From UHGV virus genome UHGV-0263856: 20,499 nt of DNA. One strand, written 5' to 3'. A program made the translations under genes and the position numbers. Shown here piece by piece: positions 378-14,041 of this stretch (its first letter is position 1; the number at the start of each line of letters is the position of its first letter). Source of the DNA: a virus. Under the pieces are notes generated by a model that saw only the letters and a program-made list of their open reading frames with translations, did not search any database and was not told the origin of the DNA.

Positions 378-454
378 TGGCGCGTTGTACTGGATTCGAA
401 CCAGTGACCGATTGCTTAGAAGGCAATTGCTCTGTCCGGCTGAGCTAACAACGC
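378..454 (-). tRNA. argO: tRNA-Arg (anticodon UCU)
   Basis: Reverse complement reads GCGTTGT-TA-GCTC...GAGC-ATTGC-CTTCTAA-GCAAT...GGTTCGAATCC...ACAACGC-G-CCA. Cloverleaf is complete with a 7-bp acceptor stem and encoded CCA; anticodon loop CUUCUAA. Symbol is by analogy with the 933W-type ileZ-argN-argO cluster (from memory). Confidence 0.85.
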
Positions 455-467
455 AGGGTACAGATAA

Positions 468-544
468 TGGACCGCCATCGAGGACTCGAACCCCGCGCAA
501 CCAGCTTCGAAGGCTGGCGCTCTATCCTGATGAGCTAATGGCGG
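468..544 (-). tRNA. argN: tRNA-Arg (anticodon UCG)
   Basis: Reverse complement gives a cloverleaf with D-stem GCTC/GAGC, anticodon stem CCAGC/GCTGG, loop CUUCGAA, T-loop GGTTCGAGTCC and encoded CCA. The acceptor stem starts with C1-G72, which is unusual, so the exact 5' end is uncertain by 1 nt. Confidence 0.8.
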
Positions 545-551
545 TATGTGA

Positions 552-627
552 TGGTGGCCCTTGCTGGATTTGAACCAGCGACCTGGCGATTATGAGTCGC
601 TCGCTCTCACCACTGAGCTAAAGGGCC
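552..627 (-). tRNA. ileZ: tRNA-Ile2-like (anticodon CAU, lysidine type; Met not formally excluded)
   Basis: Reverse complement GGCCCTT-TA-GCTCAGTGGTGAGAGC-G-AGCGA-CTCATAA-TCGCC...GGTTCAAATCC...AAGGGCC-A-CCA. Near-identical in layout to E. coli tRNA-Ile2 (ileX) as recalled. Confidence 0.85.
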
Positions 628-5639: not shown

Positions 5640-5897
5640 TCACGCAGTAAACTCCTTCACCAGCGTTTCAAACTGGCTTACCTGTCCTTCCAGTTCCGCC
5701 ACGCAATCCACCAGCTCATCCACCGCCTTTTGTGTGCGGTGTTTTGCCTGCAGCAGATCACGAAGCGCCGGAGTAAGCTGCTTGCGGAGCGTATCTTTTT
5801 TCACGCTCGTTTTTTTCATCTGTTCAGCACAACGAAGCATCTCCTGCGCCTGCCGACGAAGTTGTTCCGGTGAAACAGTGATTGTTCTGTTGTTCAA
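5640..5897 (-). CDS. Hypothetical nin-region protein
   Basis: 85-aa ORF whose start overlaps the DnaB-like stop by 4 nt. Charged, helical-looking sequence. Confidence 0.5.
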   Translation of the reverse strand: MNNRTITVSPEQLRRQAQEMLRCAEQMKKTSVKKDTLRKQLTPALRDLLQAKHRTQKAVDELVDCVAELEGQVSQFETLVKEFTA

Positions 5898-7294
5898 AAT
5901 AAACGCTCCGTTTTACTGCCCGACATGCGGTTATTGCTGTATCTGCGCGGATTGCCCGGCGTCATGGGTGTGGAAAGAACCCGGGCACTCTCCTGGTCCA
6001 CAGGCAGAAAATGTCCGTTATGAAAACGCCGGTAAATGGTCCCGAGCGTGCCATTACGCTGTTTCGTGATGTTGATTTCTGCTATGCCTCTGGCCTGAGT
6101 TTCCGGGTTGTATACCTCATCCCTGTAAAGCATCAGAATGATGTCGGCATCCGCCTCGATTTCCCCGGAGTTTTTCAGGTCCGAGTTCATTGGGCGTTTA
6201 TTGGGTCTGGATTCCACGCCGCGGGAGAGCTGGCTCAGAGCAATCAGCGGAAAACCGCCGGATTTTGCCAGGCTTTTAAGTCCCTTTGAGATTTCCCCCA
6301 CCGCAAGGTCGTGACGCCCCGTGCTGCGGGTTTTAATCAGGCCGAGGTAATCGACCACCACCAGCGCCGTTTCCGGGTGTTTCATCCGGTGGTGCTTCGT
6401 GGTTGCACATATCTCATCAATGGTCAGGTTTGCCTGGTCCACCATCCAGATATTACGCCCCGTCATTCGTCCCACGCCCTGCGAGAAACGCGCCCAGTCT
6501 TCATCTTCAAAACGGGCAACAGACTTAAGACGGGATACCGGCATTCCACCGGCAGCAGACACCATACGTTCACCAATCTGGATGTTCGCCATCTCCATGG
6601 TGAACAGAAGCACGCCATGCCCCTGCTCAGTCACCTTGTCGATGATGTCCAGCGCAAGTTCGGTTTTCCCCATCGAAGGACGGGCGGCAATGAATACCAG
6701 GTCTCCGGGCTCCATACCGCCCGTTTTTGCGTCCAGTTCATCAATACCGGTCATCAGCGCCCTGGATTTCTCCAGTCCCTGATTGCGGCATTCAACACGG
6801 TCGACCACTTCCGGAAGGACATCATCAATGTGAACCGGCTGAATGACGCCCTTTCCGGTCGACAGTGAGGCCATCATGTTCTGCACATCCTTCAGGGCAT
6901 CCTCGGCTGCTTCACAGGTATACGCATCACGTAAATTCTGTAATGCTTCAGTCAGTGTTTTTTCTGCATCGCGCAGTGCGGCATTGCGCCGCAACGCTGC
7001 GACATAGTGCTCCAGTGAAGACTTCACCCAGGTTTTGCGTCCGGTGTCGGTAATCACCGGGGCAAGTTCCGGCATCTCATTGCACAGCAGTACGGGGTCA
7101 ATGACGCCGGATATGCGAGCCTGTCTGCAAATCCCCGCGTAAATATCCCGGTACTGACGCACAAAAAATACATCCGCCGGAAGTGTGGCCAGAATATCCA
7201 TCACTTCCGGATCGGCCCCACGCAGAAAAAACGCACCGATGACAGCGCCTTCCAGGTCATCGTTACGCCATGCCGGGGTGTTCTGGCTGGTCAT
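5894..7294 (-). CDS. Replicative DNA helicase, DnaB family
   Basis: 466 aa. Walker A ARPSMGKT, then EDEDWARF, IDYLGL, ALSQLSRGVESRPNKRPMNSDL, ADIILMLYRDEVY: collinear with E. coli DnaB motifs. Confidence 0.9.
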   Translation of the reverse strand: MTSQNTPAWRNDDLEGAVIGAFFLRGADPEVMDILATLPADVFFVRQYRDIYAGICRQARISGVIDPVLLCNEMPELAPVITDTGRKTWVKSSLEHYVAALRRNAALRDAEKTLTEALQNLRDAYTCEAAEDALKDVQNMMASLSTGKGVIQPVHIDDVLPEVVDRVECRNQGLEKSRALMTGIDELDAKTGGMEPGDLVFIAARPSMGKTELALDIIDKVTEQGHGVLLFTMEMANIQIGERMVSAAGGMPVSRLKSVARFEDEDWARFSQGVGRMTGRNIWMVDQANLTIDEICATTKHHRMKHPETALVVVDYLGLIKTRSTGRHDLAVGEISKGLKSLAKSGGFPLIALSQLSRGVESRPNKRPMNSDLKNSGEIEADADIILMLYRDEVYNPETQARGIAEINITKQRNGTLGTIYRRFHNGHFLPVDQESARVLSTPMTPGNPRRYSNNRMSGSKTERLF

Positions 7295-8199
7295 GCGGCA
7301 ACACCTCCGATACGAGAACGGTAGCTGGGCCAGTTAAACGACAACCAGTTGCGCCCGCCATCGGTGATCCTGTCGGCAATCCGGGGACTGATGAACGCCC
7401 ACAATTCTTCCGGTGAAAGATTGCTGATCAAGATAGTTGGCAAAATACCCTCATACCGGGCATTGATAATTTCCTGCAAAATGGCCATTTCAGCCGCACT
7501 GCCAAACTGAACGCCGACTTCGTCGACAATCAGCAAATCCAGTGACGCATAATGCTCAATGACGTCATCCGCTGTTTTTTCACTGTCATTCCGCCAGCAG
7601 TTTTTCACAGCCCGGGTAAGGCGCATCACGTCGGTGATCTCCACACTGGCCAGATAGTTACGGATGATGTGTTTTGCCATTGATACCGCCAGATGATTTT
7701 TCCCGGTACCGCAACTGCCGGTCATAACAAGACTGGTACCGTTCTCCAGCATATCTGGCCAGTTCTCCGCATAGCGGCGACAGGCCGCAAGATTTCTGGC
7801 TGCGTCAGGATTAACCTCCAGATAATTATCAAACTCGCAGTCCCGAAAACGCAGAGCAATTCCGGCGTTATCAGTCAGTTCTTCCGCCTTGAGGGACGAC
7901 AGTTCCATGGTCAAATCACTGGCCTCAGCGATCAAGCAGTCAGGGCAGCATGAAATTTTTTCTCTGTCCTCGCCATTACGATCGATCCACACCAGTATAT
8001 GCGTACGATATTTACCGTGTTTTTCGCAATATCCGCGACCTTCACGCATCAGGCAGGAACGATAAGGCCATGGCTTTTCGCCCTTCTGAGCAAATGCAAT
8101 CTCTGCCCGTAACTCATCCATTTCTGCCCGTAACTCATCCATTCGCGCCTGTAGTCTTGTTTGTTTCTCACGTTGGTCAATCGTCATCATCGCTGTCAC
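7291..8199 (-). CDS. DnaC/IstB-like AAA+ helicase loader with Cys-rich N-terminus
   Basis: 302 aa. GSCGTGKNHLAVSMA (Walker A), LLIVDEVGVQ (Walker B), C-terminal WLSFNWPSYRS like DnaC. N-terminal Cys cluster CEKH...CCPDC. Contains the 21-bp tandem duplication at 8103-8144. Confidence 0.8.
   Translation of the reverse strand: MTAMMTIDQREKQTRLQARMDELRAEMDELRAEIAFAQKGEKPWPYRSCLMREGRGYCEKHGKYRTHILVWIDRNGEDREKISCCPDCLIAEASDLTMELSSLKAEELTDNAGIALRFRDCEFDNYLEVNPDAARNLAACRRYAENWPDMLENGTSLVMTGSCGTGKNHLAVSMAKHIIRNYLASVEITDVMRLTRAVKNCWRNDSEKTADDVIEHYASLDLLIVDEVGVQFGSAAEMAILQEIINARYEGILPTILISNLSPEELWAFISPRIADRITDGGRNWLSFNWPSYRSRIGGVAA
8103..8144. repeat. 21-bp tandem duplication inside the DnaC-like gene
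   Basis: ctgcccgtaactcatccattt / ctgcccgtaactcatccattc, 20 of 21 identical and in frame, encoding MDELRAE twice. Confidence 0.9.
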
Positions 8200-8200
8200 C

Positions 8201-9187
8201 TCAGAATGTCAATTTGTTACTGGATTTACCGAATTTGTCAGACATGGCTCCCAGGCCAGCCAGGACATCGACCTGTCGCTGTCGCCCACCTCCGTGAGCG
8301 GCTGGCTGTTGCCAGTAATCTTCGAAGTGACGATCGGGTCCAAAGAACGTCGCAGCCTGCTTCACGAACTGTGTGCCGGTATTTCCTGTAGCACGTACCC
8401 AGGCGGCATACCGCTTCACGCCATCAAGCATGGTCTCCGGTTTTATTCCCTCCCTGATACGGGCTTTCCAGGCTTTGAAGGCCGCTGACTTGGAATTGCC
8501 ACCAGCACGTTTGGGATATTCCTGCCAGGCCTGTTCAAATTCCGGTGAATATTCCTGTCGGGCAGAACGCGCAGACGCGTCAGCGGATGCATCAATAGTG
8601 TTTTTAGTCTCCGTTGTAATCTCTGTAGTAATCTCTGTATTTGTATCAACATTCGGCGTATCCCCTGTTCCGTTATGACGTCGGGGGGTGTTCCGTTTTA
8701 ACGTAATAGCTGTATCGCTGATTGCATTATTGCTGTTACTTTCTGGCGAAACAGAAGAAGGTGTGGTGATGACCGCAATTGCCTGTGGGTTGATCCCGAC
8801 AAACAAAATATTGCTGCATTTCACCCCATCGAGCATTTCCACCGTGCGTAAATCCAGAGTAATAAACCCTGCATCGCGCAGACGCTTCAGCGCATCTGCG
8901 GTTTCCCTTTTCCCGAAACCAAACTGCTCAGCAAACGCCTGGTAGCTTCTTTGCAGTTTGTCGCCCTGAAAACGCTTGCGATATCCCAGCAACGCTCCGG
9001 TGTGCTCATCCCTGACCTCTGTCGGGCGGTACCAGTAAACGATCTCTGAAAGCAGAGCGATAGCCGTCGCATCCGGACGCCCACTGGGTAGTCGAATATA
9101 TTTCCACCAGTTCGCAGGTGTAACATTGCCGGAAATATTAATTTGACCAATAGCCATAACTTCCGGTGTGGGGGCGTAACGGCTCAT
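8201..9187 (-). CDS. Replication initiator (lambda O-like role)
   Basis: 328 aa. Directly upstream of the DnaC/DnaB-like genes, with a mid-gene low-complexity linker (TEITTEITTE, DASADASARSA) that carries iteron-like repeats, as in lambda where ori lies inside O. Confidence 0.55.
   Translation of the reverse strand: MSRYAPTPEVMAIGQINISGNVTPANWWKYIRLPSGRPDATAIALLSEIVYWYRPTEVRDEHTGALLGYRKRFQGDKLQRSYQAFAEQFGFGKRETADALKRLRDAGFITLDLRTVEMLDGVKCSNILFVGINPQAIAVITTPSSVSPESNSNNAISDTAITLKRNTPRRHNGTGDTPNVDTNTEITTEITTETKNTIDASADASARSARQEYSPEFEQAWQEYPKRAGGNSKSAAFKAWKARIREGIKPETMLDGVKRYAAWVRATGNTGTQFVKQAATFFGPDRHFEDYWQQPAAHGGGRQRQVDVLAGLGAMSDKFGKSSNKLTF
8605..8652. repeat. Iteron-like 12-bp direct repeats (candidate ori) inside the initiator gene
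   Basis: tagtctccgttg / taatctctgtag / taatctctgtat / ttgtatcaacat: four adjacent 12-mers, the central two near-perfect. Confidence 0.45.
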
Positions 9188-9483
9188 ACAACCTCCTTCC
9201 GCGGCATGAGAATTGTGTAGCCACGCGCAGGTTGTAGTCTGGCTTTTGCATCAATAGTAAGCGTTGCAATTTTTCGGATATGAAGATAACCAGCTCTTTC
9301 CAGTGCCAGGGTTTCCCTGAATATCGCTTGCTTAGAACAACAGCAGAAATCAGCAAGCACCTGATGATCAATAACTCTCTCGCCTTCACCGTCTGAAGAA
9401 CCCGACATCAAAACACGCAACATAATTAGGCGCTGAATCGGGTTATCGAAAGCACATCCGCACACAAACTGAAAACAGTTCAC
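9184..9483 (-). CDS. Hypothetical HTH protein (cII-position)
   Basis: 99 aa. HQVLADFCCCSKQAIFRETLALERAGYL resembles an HTH. Start and stop each overlap neighbours by 4 nt. Confidence 0.4.
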   Translation of the reverse strand: MNCFQFVCGCAFDNPIQRLIMLRVLMSGSSDGEGERVIDHQVLADFCCCSKQAIFRETLALERAGYLHIRKIATLTIDAKARLQPARGYTILMPRKEVV

Positions 9484-9704
9484 GCCACACCTCCCAGACG
9501 CTTAAACATTTTTCCAGACAGAAATACCGCCAGAGGGTAACTGATGGTGTAGCTACGCCCCTGTAGTTCGCACACGACTTTCTGGCTTTCAGCGTTGACT
9601 AGGCAAACCCGCAGAACGTGACCGTTGCTGGTGGCGAACCACTGCCCCACACGGGGGCAACGGTTGTATCGGTGATACAGGGAATTAACGATGTGGCGGA
9701 TCAT
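9480..9704 (-). CDS. Hypothetical protein
   Basis: 74-aa ORF, translationally coupled (4-nt overlaps) on both sides. Confidence 0.4.
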   Translation of the reverse strand: MIRHIVNSLYHRYNRCPRVGQWFATSNGHVLRVCLVNAESQKVVCELQGRSYTISYPLAVFLSGKMFKRLGGVA

Positions 9705-9895
9705 GGACGCACCTCCACCGTAGTTACGTATTTAACCGGGCTACCTTTCATTGAGATGGTTTCACACATCTCTGCCGCTTTCAGTTCCGCTGTTTTTCTG
9801 GATTTATAGCGACGGTGCCAGACAGATACATCCGTGCGAACTGATACATCGTTTCTGTATTCCGTAGTGGAGATGATGATTTCGTAACTAATCAT
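9701..9895 (-). CDS. Hypothetical protein
   Basis: 64-aa ORF, translationally coupled on both sides. Confidence 0.4.
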   Translation of the reverse strand: MISYEIIISTTEYRNDVSVRTDVSVWHRRYKSRKTAELKAAEMCETISMKGSPVKYVTTVEVRP

Positions 9896-10443
9896 GGGCG
9901 AACCTCCTTGTCAGAACCATTCAGCCTGGAATCAACAAGTGCAGCGCCAAAAACAGCATCACCAACACGGTCGTACAGTTTGCTAGCCAGCGGAGATTCA
10001 ACGGCCTTAAGCATTGGATAAAGCTGGCTTGTCCAGATTTGATGGATTTCACGCAAATGCAGGTATACGCCTCTGGCGTTTCGTGCGACAGCTGACATAT
10101 CAGACGCATCGGCACCTGATAAACTCTTCTCCATCAGGTTAAAGGCGTTGATGTATGCCTCTTTGAACCGGGCTGCACGTTTGCCAGTAAAGCCCATAGC
10201 AAGGAACGCGAAGCCATCACGGGTGATTTGATAGCAAGGTAGTTTGCGGCCTGTGCAATCGGTGTAATCACTCACCGAAAAATTGCGGGCAGTGAATGAT
10301 GCGGAGCATTCAAGCGTGCGGATCTTTTTCAGTACATCGTCATGACGCTTGGAGAAGAAGTTGGCAACAGCCAGGGATGAAGTAACAGCCTGACCATCAA
10401 CGATGGCAATTTCAGGTTGAGTGAGGGTTGGGATCGTAGCCAT
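9892..10443 (-). CDS. Rha-family phage regulatory protein
   Basis: FSKRHDDVLKKI and DGFAFLAMGFTGKRAARFKEAYINAFN match the Rha domain as recalled. GGAGG 8 nt before the ATG at 10443. The ORF track extends in frame to 10743 but that N-terminal 100 aa is low-complexity with no SD. Confidence 0.6.
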   Translation of the reverse strand: MATIPTLTQPEIAIVDGQAVTSSLAVANFFSKRHDDVLKKIRTLECSASFTARNFSVSDYTDCTGRKLPCYQITRDGFAFLAMGFTGKRAARFKEAYINAFNLMEKSLSGADASDMSAVARNARGVYLHLREIHQIWTSQLYPMLKAVESPLASKLYDRVGDAVFGAALVDSRLNGSDKEVRP

Positions 10444-10828
10444 GATGGCAGCCTCCGTTGACTGTGGAAAACTTCCACCACCGGAGCTGCGAAACTCACT
10501 GGTGGCAGACTGAACAGGGTTCGCAGTACCGGCGTCAACGGAAACCGGCGAGCCTTTCGGCTCCCCTGCCCAGCCCACCATAATTCTGGCGTGCGTGAGC
10601 GCGGACGATAAAAAAGACGCTGGCGCGTCATATATCGCCGTTGACAATTCCGGGCTGCGACCCCCGGCACCCGCTTTATAAGGTGCAGAGACAGTGTAAC
10701 GTCCCGAAATTGCAGAATCAATATTTGGTCTTGAAATGATCATATAGCTGCTGATATCTTTAGAACTGTTCTTGGATGTTTCGGAGCCGTTTTATGCGAA
10801 ACAGCTCCCCGTTATTGATGTTGAGTGA

Positions 10829-10852
10829 GCCGGGTTACTCCCGGCTTTTTTT
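10829..10852 (+). terminator. Intrinsic terminator oriented opposite to the flanking genes
   Basis: + strand: GCCGGG / TTACT / CCCGGC followed by T7. It abuts the stop codon of the convergent - strand gene 10852-11559. Confidence 0.6.
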
Positions 10853-11559
10853 CACCGCTGCCAACCAATAACCTGAAATAACCCCATTTTCGGGTGATAC
10901 CAGCGAGTCCCTCGCGGTTCTGCTTCCTCCATAACCCGATAAAAAGCAGCCATAAACGGTTCCACAGCAACAATTGCGCGACGTGACAACAATCCGTCCG
11001 GCGTCATGAACTCATGGGTGTCTGTAGGAATCTGATAGGCGTTCACCAGATTGCGGCATTTATCATCTGACAAACCGGTTTTTGCTTTCAGTTGGCGATA
11101 TCCGGCATAGCCCTCACGAATAGTGCCCTTTTTAATTTGCTCGACTGTTTCAGCAACGTGGCTGACTTTTTCTTCCACCTGAGTGATCCGTTTCTGTTGG
11201 CGAACGGCTTCAAGAGCCATCGCGGCAACCATTTCGATTTCGCTCATTGGCTTACGGATCTGTTCTTCCAGTTCGCGCCAGCGATCTACCAGGCGAGCAG
11301 TGAATTCAGGACAGAGCTGTGCGACGACAATGATGCTGTCGCGCTTACCTTGTTCTCCTTCAAACAGGTAATGCTCATATTGAACTTTAAAACCTAAGTT
11401 ATTGATTCTTTCGGAAACCTCAATTTGAGGAGACCGGACAACGCCACCTTTGGCTAATGTTTCAATAGTGCGTTTCACATTGTCATGACGTTTACCCACC
11501 AGCTCTGCGATCTCAACGCTGGTCATGGATGCTTTGCCGTTAAAAATTGCGGTGTTCAT
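10852..11559 (-). CDS. Rha/antirepressor-like phage regulatory protein
   Basis: 235 aa. N-terminal SVEIAELVGKRHDNVKRTIETL (Rha-type motif). AGGAGA 6 nt before the ATG at 11559. Confidence 0.55.
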   Translation of the reverse strand: MNTAIFNGKASMTSVEIAELVGKRHDNVKRTIETLAKGGVVRSPQIEVSERINNLGFKVQYEHYLFEGEQGKRDSIIVVAQLCPEFTARLVDRWRELEEQIRKPMSEIEMVAAMALEAVRQQKRITQVEEKVSHVAETVEQIKKGTIREGYAGYRQLKAKTGLSDDKCRNLVNAYQIPTDTHEFMTPDGLLSRRAIVAVEPFMAAFYRVMEEAEPRGTRWYHPKMGLFQVIGWQR

Positions 11560-11783
11560 TGTTGGTCTCCTGTGGGCTTGTCATCTTCTGTATTCGCTAG
11601 ACTTGGGTGTGTATATGGAATGCTCGGATCCAGATGACAAAGAATGGCAACATCCTCCGGAACACCTCGCGTTTTCCACTTTCCAACACCTTGACTGCCA
11701 CGAGGCCTTCCTTTCTTTGGGAACCTGCGACCAATAGCGGCATTGGTTTTAAATTGAATTTTTAATATTTCATAAAGGGTCAT
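11556..11783 (-). CDS. Small basic ORF in the Cro position (no recognisable HTH)
   Basis: 75 aa, Arg/Lys/Gly/Pro-rich. Its stop overlaps the next ATG (ATGA). Weak SD; coding status uncertain. Confidence 0.3.
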   Translation of the reverse strand: MTLYEILKIQFKTNAAIGRRFPKKGRPRGSQGVGKWKTRGVPEDVAILCHLDPSIPYTHPSLANTEDDKPTGDQQ

Positions 11784-11894
11784 TCTTTAGTCTCACACCA
11801 GATACTTTGTTATCCAACGATGTTAACCACGGGAATCCAAAGTATCAAGAAATTCTGTTACTTTAGTATCAACAGCCATGAGAGGAGAAGAAAA
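11784..11894. promoter_or_regulatory. Divergent immunity control region (OR with PR/PRM candidates)
   Basis: Motif copies at 11803-11811 (reverse orientation), 11840-11848 and 11864-11872. Candidate - strand PR: -35 TTGATA (rc of 11843-11848), 17-nt spacer, -10 TAACAT (rc of 11820-11825). Candidate PRM -10 TAGTAT at 11864-11869. Confidence 0.5.
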
Positions 11895-12551
11895 ATGAAG
11901 TCTTTAGGTGAACGTCTCATCAACGCACGGCAAAAAGCTGGGTTAACACAAGATGCGTTGGCTAAAAAAGCTGGGATCACCAGAGTTGCAATCAGTAAAG
12001 CCGAGCAAGGCCTTACAAAAAGTTTCAACGGTGACACCCTTTTTAAAGTTGCAGCTGCACTGCGGTGTTCACCGCAGTGGCTTCAGAACGGAGATGAAAA
12101 AGATAAGCATTGGGAAAATAATGTTAAGAGCTGCCCACAGAGAGACACAGCACACTCTTACCCTGTAATTAACTGGGTTCAGGCAGGATTATTCGCAACT
12201 TCTGGTGATGACTACAACATGTATGATCAGGATAATTGGAGGCATTCTGTAAAATACGCTGGTGAGAGGGGGTTCTGGCTGGAAGTGCACGGAGACTCAA
12301 TGACTTCGCCCGTAGGAATAACATTTCCTGAAGGAATGTCGATCCTTGTCAACCCAGATAAAGAAGTTTTTTCAGGGTGTTACGTCATCGCCAGAAAAAA
12401 ATCGACCAATGAAGCAACATTCAAAAAATATATTTCTGACATGGGAAAGGCGTTTCTAAAGCCCCTTAATCCACAATATCCAATCATAGAAATGGACAAT
12501 GATTGCGAAATAGTAGGTGTTGTGGTTGATGCCAGGTGGGATATTTTCTGA
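11895..12551 (+). CDS. cI: CI-like prophage repressor (HTH plus S24 LexA-type peptidase domain)
   Basis: AGGAG 8 nt before the ATG at 11895. N-terminal LTQDALAKKAGITRVAISKAEQG (HTH), C-terminal WLEVHGDSMTSP...GCYVIARKK (Ser/Lys autocleavage dyad). Confidence 0.9.
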   Translation: MKSLGERLINARQKAGLTQDALAKKAGITRVAISKAEQGLTKSFNGDTLFKVAAALRCSPQWLQNGDEKDKHWENNVKSCPQRDTAHSYPVINWVQAGLFATSGDDYNMYDQDNWRHSVKYAGERGFWLEVHGDSMTSPVGITFPEGMSILVNPDKEVFSGCYVIARKKSTNEATFKKYISDMGKAFLKPLNPQYPIIEMDNDCEIVGVVVDARWDIF

Positions 12552-12654
12552 CCAGACACAAAACACAAAAAGAAACCAAAGTATCAAAAATCACTTGCCA
12601 CACCTTGATACCTTAGTTACCATAAAACAAAGTTCGTAACTGAGGTATCATCTC
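12552..12654. promoter_or_regulatory. OL/PL-like control region
   Basis: Motif copies at 12579-12587 (aagtatcaa), 12605-12612 (ttgatacc, reverse orientation) and 12643-12650 (ggtatcat). Candidate -35 TTGCCA at 12595-12600. Confidence 0.45.
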
Positions 12655-13155
12655 ATGATCAATAAAGCTACAACTCTTGACTGTCTCGAAGAACTGAAAA
12701 ACCTCGGCAGCCTCATTACACTAATAGCAAAAGCAACACCTGATGCTACGCTCTCTAGCGATATAGAGTCATGCGCAGGACTGGCATGGGATATGACAAA
12801 TAGCATATCCAGAAAGCTATCGTCAGCAATGCTTTTACAGAACAAAAATTCTGCAATCAACAACCGTCTTCGCACCCAACGCGAAGCCTGCGGCTTAACA
12901 ACCGCCGAACTCGCCAGGCTGCTCGATCTCGATGAAGAAATTATCATCCAGTGGGAGAGCGGAGAGTATGAACCAACTATCAGTATGCTTATCCCACTGG
13001 CAAATATTCTTGGCTGCGATCCGATGTGGCTGTTAACTGGTGAGGTTACTCCTCCGGAGCAACCAAAAAGTGAGGAGCAGCAACACCATGACGCATCTCA
13101 ACAAGTTTGCCCCTTATCTCGCGAAGCTCTTCTGCGGAAGAACCAATACCAATAG
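12655..13155 (+). CDS. HTH (XRE-type) protein, first gene of the early-left operon
   Basis: 166 aa. C-terminal half LRTQREACGLTTAELARLLDLDEEIIIQWESGEYEPTISMLIPLANILGCDPMWLL is a classic XRE HTH. N-terminal ~90 aa unassigned. Confidence 0.65.
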   Translation: MINKATTLDCLEELKNLGSLITLIAKATPDATLSSDIESCAGLAWDMTNSISRKLSSAMLLQNKNSAINNRLRTQREACGLTTAELARLLDLDEEIIIQWESGEYEPTISMLIPLANILGCDPMWLLTGEVTPPEQPKSEEQQHHDASQQVCPLSREALLRKNQYQ

Positions 13156-13286
13156 TGACATAATCGCCGCTTCGCCCTTCAAGGTACATGCGAACATTTT
13201 TATCAATCATTGCGGAAACAGTCTCAATATGAAAACACTTCTGAGACTCGCTATATAGCAGAACATATAAGTCAGCTGAGGAAGCC

Positions 13287-13652
13287 ATGAAAAAGTTCGA
13301 AAACATAACTGTTCTCCATGTTGATGACTTTGATTATACAAACCCGGAACTTCTCCCGGAGGTTGTAAAGGCAATAGATGTTGCCGATATAGTGATTAGA
13401 GAAAAGAGAATTGTCAAAAACAGGCTCGCATGCACTTCAGGAGCAATGACAGAAACAACCTCACAGCAAGATAATTACGAAGGCATTTGTCTGGAGCCTG
13501 ATTCATTTGCGGTAAATGTTTATCATTTATTGCATGCAACACAGGTATTACATATGTCCAGTAATCACGAAACGAAAACACTCGGCAGCGAAATTCTGAG
13601 TTTTGCATGTGAGTATACAAAAGCTGCTGCCGAAAAAGAATTAGCGCAATAA
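13287..13652 (+). CDS. Hypothetical protein
   Basis: 121 aa. GAGGAAG SD before the ATG. AT-rich. No motif recognised. Confidence 0.55.
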   Translation: MKKFENITVLHVDDFDYTNPELLPEVVKAIDVADIVIREKRIVKNRLACTSGAMTETTSQQDNYEGICLEPDSFAVNVYHLLHATQVLHMSSNHETKTLGSEILSFACEYTKAAAEKELAQ

Positions 13653-13730
13653 CAACAAATATGCCCTGAACGTTTATTGCGGTTTTATCGCCGGGGATTG
13701 TTACAACCTTAATCCACAGGAGGCTTTATT

Positions 13731-13844
13731 GTGACTTTTATAAAGAATATGGCATCACACAAGACCGCCTGCCTTATTGCACAATACGGTGAAAATTACA
13801 TGCATATTGCCTGCTTATTTCTGCGTAAAGCATACGGGAGATAA
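13731..13844 (+). CDS. Candidate small ORF (37 aa) upstream of 13847
   Basis: GGAGG 7 nt before the GTG at 13731 (in-frame ATG at 13749). Stop is 2 nt before the next ATG. Below the ORF-track length cutoff. Confidence 0.3.
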   Translation: MTFIKNMASHKTACLIAQYGENYMHIACLFLRKAYGR

Positions 13845-13846
13845 TA

Positions 13847-14041
13847 ATGCATCAGAAAACAGCAGAACACGAACAAACCAGAATATTGCTGACCATCAAA
13901 AACGGGAAAGTAATATTCATTCGCCATGTTCATGACGATGAACTTGTAGGAACTCTTTCAACATTCCTGTTTATTGCAGAAAGGGCAGGATATGACGTTA
14001 TTGCACCAGCAGATGAAGATGAAGATGAAGATGAGGAATAA
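13847..14041 (+). CDS. Small protein with poly-acidic C-terminal tail
   Basis: 64 aa ending APADEDEDEDEE. GGGAG SD. Confidence 0.5.
   Translation: MHQKTAEHEQTRILLTIKNGKVIFIRHVHDDELVGTLSTFLFIAERAGYDVIAPADEDEDEDEE

What the first reader, a model, noticed from the sequence alone, without database searches (positions are those of the whole stretch)
10744..10852. Strong intrinsic terminator convergent with the early-right operon: possible oop-like antisense RNA
A perfect GCCGGG/CCCGGC hairpin plus T7 on the + strand sits in the interval between the two Rha-like genes, where every annotated gene is on the - strand. In lambda an antisense RNA (oop) terminates at a similar place relative to cII. A short + strand transcript ending here would be antisense to the 5' region of 9892-10443 or its upstream extension.
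Basis: partly seen in the sequence, partly recalled or inferred. Interest (0 to 1): 0.5.

Follow-up and report, generated by a model that had tools for sequence, protein, structure and literature searches.

The report
Candidate oop-like prophage small RNA
A strong one-way transcription stop signal in a Shiga-toxin-type prophage closes a conserved ~85-base unit that has its own promoter. It is most likely an undescribed small RNA made opposite to the phage's early genes, beside the known regulatory RNAs IsrK and C4, but nobody has yet shown that it is expressed.

Summary
The hairpin is real. GAGCCGGG-TTACT-CCCGGCTT (10827-10847) is followed by T7 (10846-10852), with a stem energy of -14.5 kcal/mol. 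Under strict criteria it is the only such terminator on either strand of the 20.5-kb window; 2.5% of shuffles give any.

The cassette has three diverged sequence types (71-74% identical) in about 4% of complete E. coli genomes. All three keep:
- a + strand promoter, TTGAAA-18-TGnTATyTT
- a 5' block, GTTCTTGG
- a stem-loop whose sequence is replaced but whose fold is kept
- the terminator with T7-8

My best reading is an autonomous ~85-nt + strand RNA, positionally and architecturally like lambda OOP. It has no sequence similarity to OOP. It overlaps only the stop codon of the upstream gene and is not antisense to the antirepressor gene. Expression, strand and target are unproven. No Rfam family or paper describes it.

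It is a candidate new member of a known kind, of moderate interest.

The parts
10725..10852 (+). The whole cassette, an exchangeable 128-bp filler between the Rha235 stop codon and the isrK promoter
   Evidence: Homology to Stx1 phages stops at 10724. Types A, B and C of the cassette always lie between the same two neighbours. The cassette is 71-74% identical between types, while the flanking rha gene is 95-98% identical.
10731..10736 (+). Candidate -35 hexamer TTGAAA
   Evidence: Invariant in 21 of 22 distinct cassette sequences; one has TTGGAA.
10752..10760 (+). Candidate extended -10, TGa-TATCTT, 18 bp after the -35
   Evidence: Types B and C have TGg-TATTTT at the same 18-bp spacing, although only 10 of the 18 spacer bases match.
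10765..10852 (+). Predicted small RNA of about 83-88 nt (start inferred at 10765-10768)
   Evidence: Folds at -30 kcal/mol, z = -3.8 against shuffles. The start is inferred from the -10 position only.
10768..10777 (+). Conserved 5' block GTTCTTGGAT
   Evidence: GTTCTTGG is invariant in all 22 versions, inside the most diverged part of the cassette.
10783..10808 (+). Stem-loop 1 (GGAGCCGTTT / AAACAGCTCC, loop TATGCG)
   Evidence: Types B and C have different stem sequences at the same place that still fold into a hairpin.
10809..10826 (+). U-rich single-stranded linker CCGTTATTGATGTTGAGT
   Evidence: Unpaired or weakly paired in the MFE folds. GTTGAG is invariant.
10827..10852 (+). Intrinsic terminator: 8-bp stem, TTACT loop, T7
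   Evidence: T7-T8 in all 22 versions.
10852..11559 (-). Context: 235-aa Rha-family gene (called Roi or DNA-binding protein in phage records). Its stop codon overlaps the T-run.
10693..10721 (-). Context: inferred isrK promoter, TTGATT (10721-10716), 17 bp, TACACT (10698-10693), back-to-back with the + promoter
   Evidence: Read from the sequence. It lies 7 nt upstream of the Rfam isrK start at 10686. Inferred, not tested.
10610..10686 (-). Context: isrK RNA gene with its own terminator (10616-10629 plus T6)
   Evidence: Rfam RF01394, 58.7 bits against a gathering score of 50. Terminator found.
10498..10585 (-). Context: C4 antisense RNA gene
   Evidence: Rfam RF01695, 81.4 bits against a gathering score of 45.
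9892..10443 (-). Context: antirepressor-type Rha-domain gene with a GGAGG ribosome-binding site
   Evidence: Phage_pRha covers aa 121-206 of the long ORF, which begins 20 aa after ATG 10443. Sequence.

Best explanation
Positions 10725-10852 are a small autonomous + strand transcription unit. It has an extended -10 sigma-70 promoter (TTGAAA-18-TGaTATCTT) and makes an RNA of about 85 nt: a 5' single-stranded block GUUCUUGGAU, one stem-loop, a U-rich linker, and a strong intrinsic terminator with U7. It is transcribed against the early-right (pR) operon and diverges from the isrK promoter.

Proposed mechanism (inferred). Like lambda OOP, the RNA pairs over its full length with any pR read-through transcript at the junction between the rha235 gene and the IsrK/C4/antirepressor and replication genes. 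The duplex is cut, most likely by RNase III. That would strip the 3' hairpin from the cro-rha235 message and uncouple the downstream antirepressor and replication genes from pR.

The terminator also prevents + strand transcription from running antisense through rha235 and cro and in the sense direction into cI.

A trans-acting, Hfq-type role using the conserved 5' block is an almost equally likely mode of action.

Shown here: the terminator, the promoter-like site and their conservation, the conserved fold, and the modular nature of the cassette.
Inferred: transcription itself, the 5' end, the target and the nuclease.
For: - The terminator is unique in the window and rare in shuffles. It is one-way, because there is no U-tract on the - strand.
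- A 9/12 promoter with a TG extension lies 67 nt upstream of the terminator stem on the same strand. It is the only one of the nine promoter-like sites in 6 kb that has the TG.
- I found 22 distinct versions in three sequence types. All keep the -35, the 18-bp spacing, TGnTATyTT, GTTCTTGG, a hairpin of unrelated sequence at the same place, and the terminator with T7-8.
- The cassette is the most diverged segment locally: 71-74% identity, against 95-98% for rha and 83-89% for isrK/C4. The conserved islands inside it therefore stand out.
- Phages with the same rha235 and isrK genes carry other fillers instead. The cassette combines with at least 5 immunity-side and at least 9 downstream sequence clusters. 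It behaves as a discrete, exchangeable gene.
- phiP27 has a non-homologous + strand terminator at the same spot. This argues that + strand termination is what is selected there.
- The architecture matches lambda OOP: 77 nt, a stem-loop plus terminator.
- The U7-8 tail and U-rich linker fit the usual Hfq-binding module (established knowledge; also cited in PMC4104026).
Against: - There is no expression data of any kind. No paper or Rfam family covers the element.
- 9/12 promoter matches are common: 9 found against 7.9 expected in 6 kb. An 18-bp spacer is suboptimal.
- The terminator and the -35 abut flanks that are highly conserved anyway, so their invariance is weak evidence.
- The terminator stem never co-varies.
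- Wobble changes do not settle the strand. Three changes in stem-loop 1 of type A are G-U on the - strand but mismatches on the + strand. Two others, in the type C stem-loop and the L065 terminator, favour the + strand.
- Both strands fold about equally well.
- Related phages, such as the Stx1 phages, lack the cassette altogether.
- I found no target above background within the window.
Confidence: 0.5

Rival explanations
1. Insulator only. The terminator exists to stop stray + strand transcription, from the promoter-like site or from anywhere in the antisense of the early-right genes. Unchecked, such transcription would run antisense into rha235 and cro and in the sense direction into cI. Any short RNA made is a by-product with no function of its own.
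For: phiP27 has a different + strand terminator at the same place with no sRNA cassette in front of it. The terminator stem and T-run are the best-conserved part. cI lies downstream on the + strand.
Against: It does not explain why the stem-loop fold is kept while its sequence is replaced. It does not explain the invariant GTTCTTGG block, nor the TG-extended -10 surviving in the diverged middle of the cassette. A phage could lose a spurious promoter more easily than it could keep a promoter-terminator pair.
Confidence: 0.2
2. The functional molecule is the - strand (sense) RNA. The two hairpins after the rha235 stop codon act as a 3' stabiliser or processing site for the cro-rha235 message, or as a structured leader ahead of the IsrK/C4 module. 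The T-run is incidental.
For: The - strand folds as well as the + strand (-33.4 kcal/mol, z = -4.1). In type A, stem-loop 1 has a U-G wobble on the - strand where the + strand has a C-A mismatch. Two natural variants add further G-U pairs on the - strand only. The hairpin starts 6 nt after the stop codon.
Against: An A7-8 run in front of a hairpin has no known role in the sense RNA, yet it is kept at 7-8 in all 22 versions and is T-rich in the unrelated phiP27 hairpin. Two other wobble changes favour the + strand. It does not explain the conserved promoter-like site. With G-U pairs the + strand terminator stem is longer: 8-9 bp against 7.
Confidence: 0.15
3. The hairpins are a nutR-type (boxA/boxB) or put-type antitermination site on the - strand. 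They would let pR transcription pass the isrK terminator and reach the replication genes.
For: The site lies between cro-rha and an intrinsic terminator on the path to the replication genes. Types B and C have CGCUCAAC, which matches 5 of the 8 bases of lambda boxA CGCUCUUA (boxA sequence from my own knowledge), about 10 nt before stem-loop 1.
Against: There is no second copy of either hairpin anywhere in the window, including downstream of pL. No N-like arginine-rich ORF follows cI; the first pL gene is a 166-aa HTH protein. Stem-loop 1 is a 10-bp stem with a 6-nt loop, not a 5-bp boxB with a pentaloop. Related phages lack the cassette but keep the same isrK terminator.
Confidence: 0.03
4. 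It is a relic or a chance feature: a terminator left at a recombination joint, with no present function.
For: The GCCGGG/CCCGGC stem plus T-run is a generic terminator design found across unrelated bacteria. The region is a mosaic joint.
Against: The strict scan gives p of about 0.025 per window. Three diverged types keep all the parts. The cassette is present in about 4% of complete E. coli genomes with the T-run intact.
Confidence: 0.07

Closest known systems
Lambda OOP antisense RNA (promoter pO, terminator to)
   Same: It is a short RNA with its own promoter, transcribed against pR. It lies after the gene that follows cro and before the replication genes. It has a 5' stem-loop plus a strong intrinsic terminator (77 nt against about 85 nt). 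It stops leftward transcription before cro and cI.
   Different: There is no sequence similarity: the local alignment score is no better than 17% of shuffles. OOP overlaps 55 nt of cII coding sequence, whereas this RNA overlaps only the stop codon of an unrelated Rha-family gene. The neighbour on the other side is an IsrK/C4 module rather than gene O. RNase III dependence is not known here.
IsrK / C4 RNAs of P1/P7-type immI modules (Rfam RF01394, RF01695; Gifsy-1 isrK-orf45-anrP, PMC4825925)
   Same: They are immediate neighbours of this cassette. Their promoter is back-to-back with the candidate promoter, with 9 bp between the -35 hexamers. They too are small RNAs controlling an antirepressor.
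   Different: They are on the opposite strand, have no sequence or structural similarity, and no Rfam family matches the + strand. In Gifsy-1 the gene upstream of isrK is antQ, not this cassette. Many phages have isrK/C4 without the cassette.
EHEC prophage sRNAs AgvB, AsxR and HnrS (PMC4104026, PMC13502914)
   Same: They are short, prophage-borne, moron-like sRNA genes with their own promoter and intrinsic terminator, oriented convergently to phage operons. They share the Hfq-type 3' module and have a variable body with a conserved end.
   Different: They lie in the late region, downstream of PR' or within the late genes, not in the early-right operon. They are 51-66 nt long and unrelated in sequence.
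P22 sar RNA (immI antisense to ant)
   Same: It is a small antisense RNA in a region controlling an antirepressor.
   Different: From my own knowledge, not tested here: sar overlaps the ant ribosome-binding site. This RNA is about 320 nt from the antirepressor start codon.

Membership tests
Lambda OOP RNA family | Transcribed opposite to pR, from a promoter between the cII-position gene and the replication genes | tested here: inconclusive
   The position and a conserved promoter-like site fit. Transcription itself is not shown.
Lambda OOP RNA family | Sequence homology to oop | tested here: not met
   Local alignment to lambda 38599-38675 scores 16, against a shuffle mean of 13.4 (sd 2.2). 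17% of shuffles score at least as high, and only the terminator tail aligns.
Lambda OOP RNA family | Overlaps the 3' coding end of the upstream regulator gene (55 nt of cII), so that pairing leads to cleavage inside the gene | tested here: not met
   Only the stop codon (10852-10854) is overlapped by the T-run. OOP overlaps 55 nt of cII.
Lambda OOP RNA family | Architecture of one 5' stem-loop plus an intrinsic terminator, about 77 nt | tested here: met
   The predicted folds of types A, B and C have one stem-loop plus the terminator, at 85-96 nt as modelled.
Lambda OOP RNA family | RNase III-dependent down-regulation of the overlapped message | not testable with these tools
   Needs Northern blots or primer extension in wild-type and rnc strains.
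Any curated Rfam family | Score at or above the gathering threshold on the + strand at 10744-10852 | tested here: not met
   The best hit is sroD at 24.5 bits against a gathering score of 50, and only the terminator aligns. Nothing reaches gathering score.
Hfq-dependent trans-acting sRNA (class) | Rho-independent terminator with at least 7 U, preceded by a U-rich single-stranded stretch | tested here: met
   U7-8 in all versions. The linker is CCGUUAUUGAUGUUGAG or its B/C equivalents.
Hfq-dependent trans-acting sRNA (class) | Conserved single-stranded seed with an identifiable target | tested here: inconclusive
   GUUCUUGG is invariant. No target in the window stands above the shuffled-query background. 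The host genome was not searchable offline.
Hfq-dependent trans-acting sRNA (class) | Binding to Hfq in vivo | not testable with these tools
   No CLIP or RIL-seq data for a strain carrying the cassette was found.
nut (boxA/boxB) antitermination site | A matching second site in the pL operon and an N-type protein | tested here: not met
   There is no second copy of either hairpin and no N-like ORF.

The most novel reading that the evidence does not exclude
The + strand RNA is a third RNA of the antirepressor switch. It is fired back-to-back with IsrK/C4 and destroys or blocks pR read-through into the IsrK/C4/antirepressor module, or it pairs in trans through GUUCUUGG. Three small RNAs would then jointly decide whether an Stx-type prophage makes antirepressor, and so whether it induces and releases toxin. 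A further twist would be that the conserved 5' block competes with the terminator stem, allowing regulated read-through towards cI as a pRE-like route.
Probability: 0.12. Interest if true: 0.65.

Novelty: new member of a known kind. Interest (0 to 1): 0.4.

Why it matters
If it is expressed, this would be an undescribed small RNA family in the early control region of lambdoid prophages, including Stx2a-converting phages, carried by about 4% of complete E. coli genomes. It sits directly beside the IsrK/C4 antirepressor switch. It would extend the idea of an antisense RNA at the cII/replication junction to phages that have no cII or oop homologue. It would also offer a handle on prophage induction, and therefore toxin release. 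The work also corrects the local annotation: the ORF 'extension', annotated as 'ash family protein', covers two RNA genes.

Tried and rejected
1. Rfam at gathering and at E-value thresholds. Nothing was found for the + strand; the sroD, SorX and PrrF hits align only the terminator.

2. Hairpin-only pattern scan of genome contigs. It returned 120 unrelated terminators in many phyla and no homologues. The stem is a generic design, and the scan was wasted.

3. Metagenome scan with GTTCTTGG..GTTGAG.GAGC. Most matches were chance. Four were true hits, all identical to sequences already known.

4. RNAalifold on a MAFFT alignment. The stem-loops of types A, B and C are not alignable, so the consensus was meaningless. 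It gave only a possible pairing between the 5' block and the terminator arm.

5. Strand assignment from G-U wobbles. The result was 3 against 2, which is inconclusive.

6. nut or put reading. Rejected for lack of a second site and of an N-like protein.

7. Small + strand ORF from ATG 10796 in the loop of stem-loop 1, with GGAG 7 nt upstream. It runs through the terminator into rha235 and would lack a stop codon on the terminated RNA. Rejected.

8. Trans targets inside the window by RNAduplex. Nothing stood above shuffled queries; an earlier run timed out.

9. Literature. No paper holds the hairpin sequence. The known EHEC prophage sRNAs are located elsewhere.

10. LexA box and cI-operator resemblance at the -10, checked by eye only. 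Neither was convincing. The cassette type is also independent of immunity type.

Full report
**Observation.** The sequence at 10827-10852 reads GAGCCGGG TTACT CCCGGCTT followed by T's. This gives an 8-bp stem with 6 G-C pairs, a 5-nt loop, and a T7 run at 10846-10852. The consensus scan lists it as the best terminator-like site in 8000-14000. The stem folds at -14.5 kcal/mol, stronger than the lambda oop terminator (-11.4) or the neighbouring isrK terminator (-7.1). I also ran a stricter scan: perfect stem of at least 6 bp, at least 5 G-C pairs, at least 6 T in the next 7 bases. Under that scan it is the only hit on either strand of the whole window, and only 2.5% of 200 dinucleotide-preserving shuffles give any hit. 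On the - strand the hairpin is preceded by A7 and followed by UCACUCAACAUC, so it terminates in one direction only.

**Context, and a correction.** The window is the early region of a lambdoid, Stx-type prophage.
- cI-like repressor at 11820-12551 (+): HTH_3 plus Peptidase_S24.
- A 75-aa cro-position ORF at 11556-11783 (-).
- A 235-aa Rha-family gene at 10852-11559 (-).
- Replication genes further along the - strand: IstB/DnaC-like at 7291-8199 and DnaB-like at 5894-7294.
- The closest records are Stx2a-converting phages.

These are isrK (10610-10686, 58.7 bits) and the C4 antisense RNA (10498-10585, 81.4 bits). Together they form a P1/P7-immI-type or Gifsy-1-type module in front of an antirepressor-like Rha-domain gene. 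That gene's credible start is ATG 10443, behind a GGAGG (PMC4825925). From the sequence I infer the isrK promoter as TTGATT (10721-10716), 17 bp, TACACT (10698-10693), ending 7 nt before the Rfam start.

**The cassette.** Stx1 phages share the isrK module up to window position 10724 and then diverge. Phage PhiR49_2 shares 10663-11000. Positions 10725-10852 are therefore a discrete 128-bp filler between the rha235 stop codon and the isrK -35.
- Type A, the window's version, occurs in 204 of 5426 complete E. coli genomes at 95% identity or better. A type C query finds 33 more.
- Among 80 IMG/VR loci holding the rha235 gene, 79 could be classified. I found five kinds of filler: A (54), B (4), C (9), D (5, phiP27-like) and E (7, Stx1-phage-like).
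- A, B and C are homologous but only 71-74% identical (A against B or C). The adjacent rha gene is 95-98% identical and the isrK/C4 segment 83-89%.
- Across 22 distinct A/B/C sequences the conserved islands are: TTGAAA; TCATAT; CTGnTATyTTT; GTTCTTGG; and GTTGAGyGAGCCGGGTyACT(n)CCCGGC followed by T7-8.
- The tool's promoter scan independently reports TTGAAA-18-TATCTT or TATTTT with a preceding TG in types A, B and C. In each case it lies upstream of the same-strand terminator.
- Between the promoter and the terminator, each type has a hairpin at the same place with an unrelated stem sequence: GGAGCCGTTT/AAACAGCTCC, CTGC/GCAG within GGC/GCC, and ACTTC/GAAGT within GGC/GCC.
- Type A combines with at least 5 different immunity-side and at least 9 different downstream sequence clusters.

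**What it most likely is.** Taken together, these are the marks of a small, self-contained gene on the + strand: promoter, RNA of about 85 nt (10765/8 to 10852), terminator. The predicted RNA has a free 5' block GUUCUUGGAU, one stem-loop, a U-rich linker, and a terminator with U7-8. It folds at -30 kcal/mol with z = -3.8. This is the architecture of lambda OOP (77 nt, stem-loop plus terminator) and of many Hfq-binding sRNAs. Its place in the gene order is also that of OOP: after the gene that follows cro and before the replication genes.

I propose that it pairs with pR read-through RNA at the rha235/isrK junction, and that the duplex is cleaved. Cleavage would destabilise the cro-rha235 message and uncouple the antirepressor and replication genes. 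A trans-acting role through the invariant 5' block is nearly as likely. The terminator also keeps + strand transcription from running antisense through rha235 and cro and into cI. phiP27 supports selection for + strand termination at this point. It has a non-homologous hairpin, GGCCGG-TTTTCTCT-GCCGGCC followed by TTTCTTATTT, at the same spot after its rha235 homologue.

**What weakens this reading.**
- Nothing shows that the RNA is made.
- 9/12 promoter matches are frequent: 9 found against 7.9 expected in 6 kb.
- The terminator and the -35 lie next to flanks that are conserved anyway, and the terminator stem never co-varies.
- Both strands fold about equally well.
- Wobble evidence is split. 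In type A, stem-loop 1 has a C-A mismatch on the + strand that is a U-G pair on the - strand, and two natural variants do the same. By contrast, a type C stem-loop variant and a terminator variant (L065) are U-G on the + strand and mismatched on the - strand.
- Some related phages do without the cassette.
- No target inside the window stands out.

**Rivals.**
- (a) An insulating terminator whose short RNA is a by-product (0.2).
- (b) A sense-strand RNA structure that stabilises or processes the cro-rha message (0.15). This does not explain the conserved A7-8/T7-8 run or the promoter.
- (c) A nut or put antitermination site (0.03). There is no second copy of either hairpin and no N-like protein.
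- (d) A relic or chance feature (0.07).

**Comparison with known systems.**
- It works like OOP in position, orientation and architecture.
- It is not a member of the OOP family by homology, and it lacks OOP's 55-nt overlap with the upstream coding sequence.
- It matches no Rfam family.
- It is unrelated to IsrK and C4, which are on the other strand.
- It is unrelated to the EHEC prophage sRNAs AgvB, AsxR and HnrS, which lie in the late region.
- No paper in the library holds its hairpin sequence.

**Verdict.** The 'oop-like' interpretation is partly supported: the analogy holds for position and architecture, but not for homology, and the RNA is not antisense to the antirepressor gene. It is a candidate new member of a known kind, namely a phage small or antisense RNA with its own promoter and terminator. 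Interest is 0.4. Confidence that a real + strand RNA gene is present is about 0.5.

Noticed in passing
window 10498-10686 (-): The C4 antisense RNA (10498-10585) and isrK (10610-10686) form a P1/P7-immI-like or Gifsy-1-like RNA switch in front of the antirepressor-type gene 9892-10443. The same pair is found in phiP27, SfV, Stx1 phages and E. coli O103:H2 12009.
   Followed up: yes
window 9892-10743 (-): The 283-aa ORF stays open across both RNA genes. Pfam Phage_ASH (PF10554) matches aa 16-111, which is the translation of isrK and C4, and PGAP annotates such ORFs as 'ash family protein'. Among 7 homologues, substitutions show no third-codon-position excess in isrK (13/8/9) or C4 (13/9/16). 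The 'Ash' family may therefore largely be a translated RNA gene. The ATG at 10743 is conserved but has no Shine-Dalgarno sequence.
   Followed up: partly
window 10616-10629 (-) plus T6: The isrK intrinsic terminator lies in the path of the early-right operon, upstream of the replication genes. No N-like gene or nut pair was found. How pR transcription reaches the replication genes is unclear. In Gifsy-1 part of the transcripts starting at the isrK promoter read through this terminator (PMC4825925).
   Followed up: partly
L085 (phage phiP27) 2679-2706: A non-homologous + strand terminator, GGCCGGTTTTCTCTGCCGGCC followed by TTTCTTATTT, sits at the stop codon of the phiP27 Rha235 homologue. An extra gene (L15) follows it instead of the cassette.
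   Followed up: partly
window 10768-10775 and 10830-10838 (+): The invariant 5' block GUUCUUGG can pair with the 5' arm and loop of the terminator (CCGGGUyAC). RNAalifold proposed this pairing. It would be a weak antiterminator conformer, but it cannot be tested by covariation because both sides never vary.
   Followed up: no
L023, L040 and other type C loci; L022, L024 and other type B loci: Type C cassettes carry TTTACTAACG twice in direct orientation: just after the -10 and in the linker before the terminator. Type B has the palindrome TCAACGTTGA in the linker. These could be protein-binding sites. They are unexplained.
   Followed up: no
window 381-627 (-): Three tRNA genes in a row, as found in the late-regulatory region of Stx phages.
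   Followed up: no
window 11799-11874 and 12572-12651: Repeated operator-like sites of the form TTGATACyTTrGTTAC flank the cI-like gene and presumably mark the pR/pRM and pL operators. The first gene after the presumed pL is a 166-aa HTH protein, not an N homologue.
   Followed up: no
L084 (Stx1a phage Stx1_14040) 1826-2017: In Stx1 phages the same rha235 and isrK genes are joined by a different filler of about 190 bp. It has a small ORF (starting MQVLNRWF...) and no terminator. The record annotates it as part of a 341-aa 'antirepressor' running through isrK and C4.
   Followed up: partly
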